From a virus (Duplodnaviria; Heunggongvirae; Uroviricota; Caudoviricetes), in IMG/VR virus record IMGVR_UViG_3300042535_000037, positions 100,031-164,030 of that record: a stretch of DNA of 64,000 bases, one strand, 5' to 3'. How positions within the stretch are numbered: the stretch's first letter is position 1; the number at the start of each line of letters is the position of its first letter. A model generated the notes under the pieces. It was not told the origin of the DNA. It saw nothing but the letters and a program-made list of their open reading frames with translations, and did not search any database. The position numbers were made by a program, and so were the translations under genes. This document shows, piece by piece, positions 3,774 through 3,887 of the stretch.

Positions 3774-3887
3774 CAACATCTATTACTTCTTGGAGAAGTT
3801 CTAAGGTGAGGCGATGTAGTTCGAATCTACTGCCTGCTTGGTTCGATTCCGAAGTGGGTCTGGCGACATATCCTTAGATAGATGTTG
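3774..3887 (+). ncRNA. multibranch RNA with two T-loop hairpins
   Basis: Perfect 10-bp closing stem CAACATCTAT/ATAGATGTTG; TCTAAGG/CCTTAGA; loops TTCGAAT (3830-3836) and TTCGATT (3842-3848). Confidence 0.7.

What the first reader, a model, noticed from the sequence alone, without database searches (positions are those of the whole stretch)
3774..3887. RNA with two TpsiC-type loops inside a perfect 10-bp closing stem
Between two tRNA-like RNAs, CAACATCTAT/ATAGATGTTG closes a junction containing ACTTCT/AGAAGT and TCTAAGG/CCTTAGA. The inner helix carries two hairpins capped by TTCGAAT and TTCGATT. Paired T-loops are the established tRNA-elbow-binding device of RNase P, T-box leaders and the L1 stalk. 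Here they could bind tRNA or mimic it (inference). An 8-bp hairpin (3891-3913) follows.
Basis: partly seen in the sequence, partly recalled or inferred. Interest (0 to 1): 0.75.

Follow-up and report, generated by a model that had tools for sequence, protein, structure and literature searches.

The report
Virus-borne double-T-loop tRNA mimic
The flagged 114-base RNA is real and belongs to a family, absent from the Rfam RNA library, of small tRNA look-alike RNAs that phages, prophages and this archaeal-type virus carry directly behind a tRNA-type gene. Its two T-loops look like parts of a rearranged tRNA body rather than a tRNA-docking device, and its function is still unknown.

Summary
Positions 3774-3887 carry a perfect 10-bp closing stem (P1), a 6-bp hairpin with a UGG loop (P2), a 6-bp inner stem (P3), and two hairpin loops with the full tRNA T-arm consensus.

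The RNA is not an orphan. A covariance model of it led to eight or nine related modules:
- four or five IMG/VR phage contigs, where the module sits in tRNA arrays;
- four Clostridia-type MAG contigs, in prophage-like context.

None has an Rfam match. Across eight sequences P2, P3, the first T-stem and a bipartite stem under the second T-loop all show compensatory changes. Overall 94% of cells pair, against 41-49% when the partners are slid. A UGA after P3, a GG in the P2 loop and a GG-YRCAA tail are conserved.

The order is closing stem, T arm, sealed acceptor-like stem-loop, GG-bearing D-like tail. This is the order of the tRNA-like module of bacterial Y RNAs (YrlA). The Rfam search, which includes the YrlA model, returned no match for the module, and the virus has no Ro60 gene.

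I read it as a new variant of a circularly permuted tRNA mimic. I do not read it as an interdigitated T-loop tRNA receptor. Function is untested. The neighbouring RNA1 appears in a metatranscriptome contig that is CCA-tailed and end-joined.

The parts
3574..3582 (+). TATA-type promoter motif (TTTTTATAC) of the RNA operon. The next copy is at 4060, and none lies between.
   Evidence: the motif TTTWTATAC occurs 67 times on the + strand (about 6 expected). In 29 cases an ATG lies 20-21 nt downstream. Copies lie at 3574 and 4060.
3604..3771 (+). Neighbour RNA1, a tRNA-like RNA with a large insert. Its 3' cut defines the 5' side of the finding.
   Evidence: a metatranscriptome contig reads 3712-3771 + CCA + 3604-3707. 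ARAGORN calls a tRNA once 3645-3739 is removed.
3774..3783 (+). P1 5' strand (outer closing stem).
   Evidence: An outer stem is also present in the relatives (helix 1, 97% paired).
3785..3799 (+). P2 hairpin: 6 bp with a UGG loop. GG is conserved in the P2 loop of all relatives.
   Evidence: helix 2: 6 of 6 pairs show compensatory changes.
3801..3806 (+). P3 5' strand. This is the stem that closes the tRNA-like head, in the anticodon-stem position of a permuted tRNA.
   Evidence: helix 3: 100% paired in 8 sequences, and 6 of 6 pairs covary.
3807..3815 (+). Junction UGAGGCGAU. UGA is invariant in 8 of 8 relatives. GAGGCGA is shared with tRNA-like RNAs at 3927 and 6806.
3816..3830 (+). First T-arm hairpin (GTAG / TTCGAAT / CTAC), in the T-arm position.
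   Evidence: helix 4: 100% paired, 3 of 4 pairs covary. It is closest to the T arm of RNA1, with a compensatory C-G to U-A change.
3832..3859 (+). Bipartite stem (10 bp, one bulge, three G-U pairs) capped by the second T-loop, TTCGATT. It occupies the sealed acceptor-like position.
   Evidence: helices 5 and 6: the outer part is 84% paired and 4 of 4 pairs covary, in a helix the alignment was not fitted to.
3860..3871 (+). 3' tail CUGGCGACAUAU with a conserved GG (D-loop-like). Relatives have YWGGYGCAAYAY.
   Evidence: The motif is present in the four members that were found without requiring it.
3872..3877 (+). P3 3' strand.
3878..3887 (+). P1 3' strand.
3891..3913 (+). 8-bp hairpin between the module and RNA3. 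Loop bases 3899-3903 are complementary to 3854-3858.
   Evidence: The complementarity is read from the sequence; I estimate chance at about 0.04.
3921..4050 (+). Neighbour RNA3, a tRNA-like RNA with acceptor GGGCTTG/CCTGCCC and a T arm at 4026-4042.
   Evidence: ARAGORN calls nothing here.
4059..4064 (+). T-run that probably ends the operon. It overlaps the next promoter motif.
   Evidence: Termination is inferred, not shown.

Best explanation
The RNA at 3774-3887 is a member of a conserved, virus-borne family that Rfam does not list. The family consists of circularly permuted tRNA mimics.

Proposed layout:
- An outer stem (P1) and an inner stem (P3) close a tRNA-like head.
- The head reads, 5' to 3': a UGA junction, a true T arm (first T-loop), a sealed acceptor-like stem-loop capped by a second T-loop, and a short GG-bearing D-like tail.
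- A further GG-loop hairpin (P2) branches between P1 and P3.

This is the helix order of the tRNA-like module of bacterial Y RNAs (YrlA).

Shown: it lies in one promoter-to-T-run unit with two odd tRNA-like RNAs. The processing cut after C3771 of RNA1, two bases upstream, frees its 5' side.

Inferred: each T-loop docks on one of the two GG motifs, giving one or two tRNA-elbow-like knobs. The RNA would then act as a stable tRNA look-alike, that is, a ligand or decoy for proteins that read the tRNA elbow or T arm. Candidates are processing enzymes, modification enzymes, RNA-repair enzymes or tRNA-targeting defence enzymes. It would not act as a decoder or as a tRNA receptor.
For: Structure in this sequence:
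- P1, P2 and P3 dominate the ensemble, with z = -2.9.
- With the T-loops held open, the MFE gives the T hairpin plus a 10-bp stem under the second loop.

Relatives:
- The single-sequence model R1 picked out L088, L049 and L299.
- Model R2, trained on those four, scored four untrained MAG members at 45-51 bits. The best unrelated match was about 33 bits (L225, not inspected), and an ordinary tRNA with its flanks (L265) reached about 30 bits.
- R3 added L017 at 41.6 bits.

Covariation on 8 sequences:
- 94% of cells pair, against 41-49% when the partners are slid.
- 24 of 31 pairs have changes on both sides.
- P3 covaries at 6 of 6 pairs and is 100% paired.
- P2 covaries at 6 of 6 pairs.
- The T stem covaries at 3 of 4 pairs.
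- The outer acceptor-like helix covaries at 4 of 4 pairs, although the alignment was not fitted to it.

Features that were in no search pattern are conserved: UGA after P3 (8 of 8), GG in the P2 loop (8 of 8), and the GG tail in the four members found without it.

tRNA descent: the heptamer GAGGCGA is shared with positions 7-13 of the tRNA-like RNAs at 3927 and 6806. Three of the five + strand copies in 183 kb lie in these RNA operons. The T arms resemble those of the neighbours.

Layout: it matches the order V, T, AS, D between the strands of a terminal stem in YrlA (PMC4201824).

Context:
- In L088, L049 and L299 the module begins 0-20 nt after a tRNA. Here it begins 2 nt after RNA1.
- RNA1's ends at G3604 and C3771, and an untemplated CCA, appear in a contig from a library labelled metatranscriptomic.
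- The virus encodes a class II CCA enzyme and a kinase-phosphatase-Rnl1 ligase fusion.
Against: - No transcript, end or modification of the module itself has been seen.
- The family is small (8-9 sequences). Most members were collected with patterns that demanded the two T-loops, plus CTTGGAG or GGYRCAA in some scans. Loop conservation and part of the model scores therefore follow from how they were found.
- The alignment was made by a model fitted to most of the helices, which inflates the pair counts.
- The window's member is the most divergent. Its tail reads GGCGACA, not GGYGCAA. Its stem under the second loop is in a register shifted by one column. It alone has a 10-bp P1.
- The Rfam search, which includes the YrlA model, returned no match for the module at E up to 10.
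- No Ro60/TROVE gene is in the virus.
- The D-like tail forms at most a 2-3-bp hairpin.
- The GG/T-loop contacts are inference only.
Confidence: 0.6

Rival explanations
1. tRNA-elbow receptor. The two T-loops interdigitate and stack on the elbow of a tRNA, as in RNase P, T-box Stem I and the L1 stalk. The conserved UGGY in the tail could then pair with the tRNA's NCCA end.
For: Both T-loops and a UGGY/AGGY tail motif are kept in all eight relatives. The module always lies next to tRNA genes. The review PMC4810234 expects further examples of the motif. The UGGN-NCCA parallel with the T-box bulge and RNase P L15 is from my own knowledge and is inference.
Against: Known interdigitated motifs use pentanucleotide T-loops meshed inside one compact context. 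Here there are two separate 7-nt hairpin loops, each with the full tRNA consensus and a G-C closing pair. In tRNA, loops of this kind need a D-loop GG partner. Exactly two conserved GG motifs are available in cis. The helix order equals that of a tRNA mimic. Nothing measures or reads an anticodon.
Confidence: 0.08
2. Structured spacer only. The fold insulates and marks the processing sites of the flanking tRNA-type RNAs, like a t-element or a transcribed spacer of a tRNA operon. It is discarded after RNase P and tRNase Z cuts, with no function of its own.
For: It sits between two tRNA-like RNAs in a single transcription unit. RNA1 is cut 2 nt upstream. Other operons of this virus start with stem-closed leaders that lack T-loops. 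Leader-trailer pairing around tRNA-like structures is known to influence processing (PMC8457004; title and abstract seen).
Against: A mere spacer would not be expected to keep the same five helices, the UGA junction, two T-loops and two GG motifs across phages of 35-56% G+C and a virus that looks archaeal. In L088 and L049 it fills a slot in a tRNA array as a discrete unit.
Confidence: 0.2
3. A working, if odd, tRNA. An alternative cloverleaf uses acceptor 3778-3784/3853-3859, P2 as the D arm, the first T-type hairpin as an anticodon arm reading CGA, and the second as the T arm. It would be processed and charged.
For: ARAGORN calls tRNA-Ser(CGA) after removal of 3802-3814. The loop TTCGAAT fits the pattern Y-U-NNN-R-N.
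Against: This fold needs a 13-nt deletion. It has three G-U pairs in the acceptor stem. Its ensemble probability is about 0. It ignores the 16 nt that pair perfectly as P1+P3. The relatives covary for P3, not for this acceptor. There is no Rfam tRNA match at E up to 10.
Confidence: 0.03
4. A decayed relic. It arose by recombination among neighbouring tRNA-like genes, and its helices are chance or leftovers.
For: The T arms and the GAGGCGA string are paralogous to the neighbours. A 10-bp inverted repeat alone is not rare. No close relatives of the virus are available.
Against: P1, P2 and P3 are flawless, with 22 Watson-Crick pairs in all. The same architecture recurs, with compensatory changes, in unrelated viruses.
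Confidence: 0.04

Closest known systems
YrlA, the tRNA-like Y RNA of bacteria and mycobacteriophages (Rfam RF02553; Chen et al. 2014, PMC4201824)
   Same: - The two ends of the RNA form a terminal stem.
- Inside it, in the same 5'-to-3' order, lie a T stem-loop with the tRNA T-loop consensus, a sealed acceptor-like stem-loop (AS) and a D-like element with GG.
- Both are associated with RNA-repair gene sets. Here these are the CCA enzyme and the kinase-phosphatase-Rnl1 fusion. For YrlA it is the rsr-rtcBA neighbourhood, as cited in PMC4201824.
   Different: - Rfam, which includes the YrlA model, returned no match for the module at E up to 10.
- The virus has no Ro60/TROVE gene.
- The acceptor-like stem is capped by a second complete T-loop.
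- An extra GG-loop hairpin (P2) sits outside the head.
- The D element is reduced to a short tail.
- The module always directly follows a tRNA-type gene.
- One member is in a virus with archaeal-type promoters.
Interdigitated double T-loop motif of RNase P, T-box Stem I and the ribosomal L1 stalk (Zhang and Ferre-D'Amare 2016, PMC4810234)
   Same: Two T-loop motifs lie close together in one RNA that lives among tRNA genes.
   Different: The known motif meshes two pentanucleotide T-loops head to tail in one compact unit. Here there are two independent 7-nt hairpin loops of tRNA type, each with a possible GG partner in cis. No specifier or ruler element is present.
Transcribed spacers and t-elements of tRNA/rRNA operons (tRNA-like processing signals)
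   Same: It is co-transcribed between tRNA-type RNAs and is bounded by a tRNA-type 3' cut.
   Different: It has its own conserved multi-helix fold and sequence motifs, shared across unrelated viruses. Spacers are not known to do this (own knowledge).
Handle-less permuted tRNA mimics in phage tRNA arrays, noted earlier in this scan (e1-5441189, e1-5347618, e1-5338951; unchecked AI notes)
   Same: A tRNA-sized slot in a viral tRNA array holds an inside-out tRNA look-alike with a sealed acceptor end and no anticodon.
   Different: As far as their summaries say, those have one T-loop and no handle. This family has two T-loops, a closing handle and an extra GG hairpin. I did not compare sequences with them.

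Membership tests
Interdigitated double T-loop tRNA-elbow receptor | Two pentanucleotide T-loops meshed head to tail, each filling the other's stacking gap | not testable with these tools
   This needs a 3D structure. The definition is taken from PMC4810234.
Interdigitated double T-loop tRNA-elbow receptor | The T-loops arise from internal or apical loops of one compact helical context, not from tRNA-type T arms | tested here: not met
   There are two separate hairpins. Each has a 7-nt loop, a G-C closing pair and the full GTTCGAWTC consensus.
Interdigitated double T-loop tRNA-elbow receptor | Both loops conserved in homologs | tested here: inconclusive
   Both loops are present in all 8 relatives, but the search patterns required them.
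tRNA (RF00005) | Cloverleaf recognised by tRNA models | tested here: not met
   ARAGORN finds nothing. Rfam gives no tRNA match at E up to 10. Only a forced 13-nt deletion gives a weak call.
tRNA (RF00005) | T arm with G53-C61 and the T54-T55-C56-R57-A58 loop | tested here: met
   It is met twice, at 3819-3827 and 3841-3849.
tRNA (RF00005) | Anticodon arm with a 7-nt loop in the normal place | tested here: not met
   There is no such arm. P3 closes directly onto the head.
YrlA / bacterial Y RNA (RF02553) | Match to the family's covariance model | tested here: not met
   No Rfam match was returned at E up to 10 for the window member or for L299. No Rfam family covers the module in the MAG loci.
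YrlA / bacterial Y RNA (RF02553) | Terminal stem from the 5' and 3' ends enclosing T, AS and D elements in that order | tested here: met
   The order is P1/P3, T hairpin, stem-loop under the second T-loop, then GG tail. It is supported by covariation and compared with PMC4201824.
YrlA / bacterial Y RNA (RF02553) | Ro60 (TROVE) partner encoded nearby, and the conserved Ro-binding helix motif | tested here: not met
   There is no TROVE match in the 183-kb virus, and the controls for this search were positive. The GNCGAAN0-1G motif was not looked for systematically. The host genome is unknown.
Archaeal bulge-helix-bulge processing stem (splicing endonuclease substrate) | Two 3-nt bulges on opposite strands separated by a 4-bp helix | tested here: not met
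   The 3' strand of P3+P1 (3872-3887) is continuous. The BHB scan gave 4 hits in 3590-4070 against 6.7 in shuffles, and none flanks the module.
New module family defined here (alignment A6, model R3) | P2 with a GG loop, P3, UGA junction, T hairpin, bipartite stem capped by a second T-loop, GG tail | tested here: met
   The window member scores 115 bits with R2, though it is a training sequence. All helices are present. The tail motif and the register of the second stem deviate.

The most novel reading that the evidence does not exclude
The module is a portable 'double-elbow' tRNA mimic shared by bacterial phages and an archaeal-type virus. It would be released from behind a tRNA-type gene by the tRNA end-processing enzymes, and perhaps end-joined as its neighbour RNA1 seems to be. 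It would then serve the virus in one of two ways:
- as a decoy or sponge for host factors that read the tRNA elbow, such as tRNA-targeting defence nucleases or processing and modification enzymes;
- as an RNA scaffold for the virus's own CCA-adding, kinase-phosphatase and ligase repair enzymes, a Ro60-independent counterpart of Y RNAs.
Probability: 0.2. Interest if true: 0.8.

Novelty: new variant of a known kind. Interest (0 to 1): 0.6.

Why it matters
tRNA look-alike RNAs in viral tRNA arrays are easily missed by gene finders. Only a few, such as YrlA, have been studied. This result turns an apparent one-off into a small family supported by covariation. The family crosses very different viruses, and one member has archaeal-type promoters. 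It has a distinctive, testable design: two T-loops and two GG partners on a closed stem, always directly behind a tRNA-type gene. If the design forms tRNA-like elbows, it offers a compact natural model for how viruses exploit or evade the enzymes that handle tRNA. It also offers a candidate Ro60-independent relative of Y RNAs. The CCA-tailed, end-joined contig of the neighbouring RNA shows that at least part of this odd RNA operon is expressed and handled like tRNA.

Tried and rejected
**Annotation tools**
- ARAGORN, with and without introns, finds no tRNA in the window and one tRNA-Asn in the genome.
- Rfam at gathering threshold and at E up to 10 finds nothing at the locus.

**Close relatives of the virus**
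- No hit in INPHARED phages.
- No hit by exact pattern, by two flanking proteins or by P0002 in IMG/VR.
- The 383-aa neighbour has no homolog in the 5.8-billion protein set.
- The CCA enzyme query in JGI metagenomes returned only relatives of 49% identity or less, which I did not inspect.
- The CCA-enzyme homologs whose contigs I did inspect lie in phages or phage-like contigs that lack the odd tRNA-like cluster. Two of them use Shine-Dalgarno sites.
- The one true relative is a 202-kb JGI contig (L002) that shares about 10 proteins. It has no T-arm motif in the 21 kb I could fetch, and the record could not be scanned whole.

**Sequencing runs**
- No RNA holder is listed for the module, and no contig of run X3 covers 3772-4054. 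This says nothing about expression.

**Other checks**
- No paralog in the genome.
- BHB motif scan: not enriched.
- A test for an enclosing stem over all double-T loci was uninformative, because G-U-tolerant runs of 8-9 occur by chance. A constrained-fold census found no further members.
- The first models also gave 15-30-bit matches to ordinary tRNAs with flanks. Scores below about 35 bits were therefore ignored. The 32.6-bit match in L225 was not inspected. L032 is a false hit and L260 is left open.
- 151 genomes of the class of one MAG host held only the known copy.

**Readings rejected**
- Hammerhead-type three-way junction: the junction strands are only 0-1 nt.
- C/D box RNA: no boxes.
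- ORF 3689-3877: no promoter, and it spans two RNAs.

Full report
**1. Setting**

The window is bases 100031-164030 of a 183,084-bp IMG/VR virus record with direct terminal repeats. The finding lies in a 519-nt gap without genes, between a 57-codon ORF (3399-3572) and an ORF that starts at 4090.

The motif TTTWTATAC occurs 67 times on the + strand, where about 6 are expected. In 29 cases an ATG lies 20-21 nt downstream. This is the signature of TATA-box promoters with leaderless mRNAs, so an archaeal host is likely (inference).

Copies of the motif lie at 3574 and 4060, and none lies between. The three RNAs in the gap therefore form one transcription unit:
- RNA1, 3604-3771;
- the finding, 3774-3887, followed by a hairpin at 3891-3913;
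- RNA3, 3921-4050.

The unit probably ends at the T-run 4059-4064.

**2. The observation**

- P1 has 10 Watson-Crick pairs.
- P2 has 6 bp and a UGG loop.
- P3 has 6 bp.
- The two loops TTCGAAT and TTCGATT are each closed by a G-C pair and 4 bp.

The fold is more stable than shuffles (z = -2.9, 0 of 200). P1, P2 and P3 dominate the ensemble, also in the context of the whole operon.

A 10-bp perfect inverted repeat alone would not be convincing, because the genome has 0.32 per kb. The nearest-neighbour MFE does not draw the T hairpins. With both loops kept open, the best fold is P1+P2+P3, the first T hairpin, and a 10-bp bulged stem (3832-3859) under the second T-loop. That fold lies only 3.2 kcal/mol above the free MFE.

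**3. tRNA descent**

No tRNA finder or Rfam model recognises the RNA. The only ARAGORN solution needs a 13-nt deletion and is energetically poor. Even so, the parts are tRNA parts.

The motif GTTCGAWTC occurs five times on the + strand of the genome, and four of these lie in this gap. The first T arm is closest to that of RNA1, with a compensatory C-G to U-A change. The second is closest to those of RNA3 and of the RNA at 8816.

The inner domain starts, right after P3, with T-GAGGCGA. This is the string that fills positions 6-13 of the tRNA-like RNAs at 3921 and 6800. Three of the five + strand copies of the heptamer in 183 kb lie in these RNA operons.

**4. Relatives**

The virus is nearly an orphan. 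Its only true relative found is a 202-kb JGI contig that shares about ten proteins at 30-50% identity and the same promoter motif. I could read only 21 kb of it.

A scan of IMG/VR for two T-loop motifs 4-30 nt apart showed that such pairs are common in phage tRNA arrays. A covariance model made from the window sequence alone then picked out elements with the same overall design:
- L088: 1259-1356;
- L049: 5517-5630;
- L299: 599-696, identical in L300.

A pattern taken from their shared tail found four more in prokaryote MAG contigs, L302, L307, L312 and L316. These are labelled Clostridia, Clostridiales or Ca. Limiplasma, and some come from rumen samples.

A model trained without those four scored them at 45-51 bits. 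The best unrelated match reached about 33 bits, and an ordinary tRNA with its flanks about 30 bits. The refined model added L017 at 41.6 bits. None of the members has an Rfam match.

The MAG hosts carry one copy each. In 151 genomes of the same class only the known copy was found. In L307 the genes beside the element are phage-like: ThyX, DUF551 and DUF3102. The element therefore travels with viruses.

**5. The shared structure**

On the eight-sequence alignment I tested a structure consisting of P1, P2, P3, the first T stem, and a bipartite stem under the second T-loop.
- 94% of the cells pair, against 41-49% when the 3' partners are slid by 1-3 columns.
- 24 of 31 pairs show changes on both sides.
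- P3 is paired in every sequence and all six of its pairs covary.
- All six P2 pairs covary.
- Three of four pairs of the T stem covary.
- All four pairs of the outer half of the second stem covary. The alignment had been fitted to a model that lacked this helix and contained a competing one, which the data do not support.

Features that no search pattern demanded are conserved:
- UGA directly after P3, in 8 of 8 sequences;
- a GG in the P2 loop, in 8 of 8;
- the tail motif YWGGYGCAAYAY in the four members that were found without it.

Caveats:
- There are only eight sequences.
- The T-loops, and CTTGGAG or GGYRCAA for some members, were required by the scans.
- Model-made alignments lean towards the model.
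- The window's member is the most divergent one.

**6. What the fold resembles**

Reading 5' to 3' inside the closing stem gives a short junction, a T arm, a stem-loop of about 7-10 bp, and a GG-bearing element. Chen et al. describe the same order for the tRNA-like module of YrlA. There the order is V, T, AS (a sealed acceptor stem) and D, lying between the strands of the stem that binds Ro60 (PMC4201824). That module is a circularly permuted tRNA.

On this reading, the first T-loop is the mimic's T arm. The tail GG is its D-loop partner. The second T-loop caps the sealed acceptor-like stem, and the GG loop of P2 is a possible partner for it. That arrangement gives up to two elbow-like knobs (inference).

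The family is not YrlA. The Rfam search, which includes the YrlA model, returned no match for it, and the virus has no TROVE gene.

The receptor reading (interdigitated T-loops as in RNase P, T-box leaders and the L1 stalk) is not supported. That motif is made of pentanucleotide T-loops meshed within one compact context (PMC4810234), not of two tRNA-type hairpins with their own GG partners. It cannot be excluded without a structure. The conserved UGGY in the tail could in principle pair with an NCCA end.

**7. Context and mechanism**

In the phage arrays the module begins 0-20 nt after a tRNA. In the MAG members it follows a T arm, an acceptor strand and an encoded CCA, and it is embedded in a larger conserved RNA of at least 330 nt. 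In the window it begins 2 nt after RNA1.

For RNA1 there is direct evidence of tRNA-like handling. A 167-nt contig comes from a library labelled metatranscriptomic. The tool marks this run as 'RNA? (probably DNA)'. The contig reads 3712-3771, then CCA, which the genome does not encode (it has TAC there), then 3604-3707, with no shared letters at the joint. This fixes the ends of RNA1 at G3604 and C3771 and shows an untemplated CCA. It also suggests a circle, a tandem, or template switching by reverse transcriptase. That artefact is known, as are true circular non-coding RNAs in archaea (PMC3326292).

The cut after C3771 leaves the module with a 2-nt 5' overhang on a 10-bp stem.

The virus encodes a class II CCA enzyme with an HD domain and a 723-aa kinase-phosphatase-Rnl1 ligase fusion. 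Its own genome also carries an ORF that matches the PTH2 gene of its relative.

My committed reading is that the module is released by the tRNA end-processing cuts as a stable, closed tRNA look-alike, and that it acts through proteins that read the T arm or elbow. Which protein, and to what end, is not known.

**8. Verdict**

The RNA is a new variant of a known kind, the permuted tRNA mimic of YrlA type. It is interesting mainly because it now has relatives in very different viruses.

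Noticed in passing
window 3604-3771 (RNA1): Run X3 comes from a library labelled METATRANSCRIPTOMIC, from a freshwater metagenome. It holds one 167-nt contig that reads 3712-3771, then CCA, then 3604-3707. The CCA is not in the genome, and there is no microhomology at the joint. RNA1 is therefore expressed, has exact ends at G3604 and C3771, and is CCA-tailed. Its 3' end is joined to its own 5' end, which could mean a circle, a tandem or RT template switching. Only the k-mers that cover 3708-3711 are missing from the 171-nt cycle.
   Followed up: partly
window 3513-3731: A variant strain appears in DNA run X2 as a 219-nt contig. It differs at 3566, 3586, 3592 and 3599, all upstream of the RNA1 start, and nowhere in 3604-3731.
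   Followed up: no
L023:2412-2512(-), L078:470-570(+), L122:1109-1209(+) and 7 more IMG/VR loci (alignment A2): This is a different conserved family of about 88 nt in large phage tRNA arrays. It has a 7-bp acceptor stem, a D arm, a 5-bp hairpin with a GACG loop, a first GGTTCGATTCC hairpin, a 10-nt linker ending in GGCAAT, and a second T arm. Eight pairs show compensatory changes. Rfam calls no tRNA there, although the slots on both sides are tRNAs.
   Followed up: partly
L307:4930-5300(+), L312, L316, L302, L299/L300: In the prophage-type members the module is the middle of a larger conserved RNA of at least 330 nt. Upstream lie a T arm, an acceptor strand and CCA, followed by CCAATNCNNCGYGGACRCC. 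Downstream lie the near-invariant blocks TAGGAAGTCCTGAACGA and ACAGCNNGGNAAGAC. There is no Rfam match, even at E up to 10. Its identity is unknown.
   Followed up: partly
window 3899-3903 and 3854-3858: Loop bases CCCAC of the 8-bp hairpin after the module are complementary to GUGGG, on the 3' side of the stem under the second T-loop. This could be a pseudoknot or an alternative pairing. I estimate chance at about 0.04.
   Followed up: no
window 37830-37965: This is another promoter-driven unit of the same style. It has a 6-bp stem-closed leader (GCTAAC...GTTAGC), followed by a tRNA-like RNA with T arm GGGGG/TTCGACT/CCCCT and TTGGT/ACCAA end pairing.
   Followed up: no
genome 70719-72890 (- strand; L212:220-2391): A 723-aa fusion joins a polynucleotide kinase-type P-loop domain (AAA_33), a metallophosphatase and a T4 Rnl1-type RNA ligase. 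The 202-kb relative has a homolog at 40% identity. Together with the class II CCA enzyme with HD domain (10926-12209) and a PTH2 homolog, the virus carries a tRNA-repair toolkit.
   Followed up: partly
L307:4699-4819(+): Rfam calls a tRNA at 46 bits with a 55-nt insertion in place of the 7-nt anticodon loop. It lies about 230 nt upstream of the module-bearing RNA in a Clostridiales MAG.
   Followed up: no
L088 (IMG/VR 3300021399_000170): The phage contig that carries a family member has 14 tRNAs, including a CUA-anticodon tRNA that ARAGORN labels Pyl. This is a possible amber suppressor.
   Followed up: no
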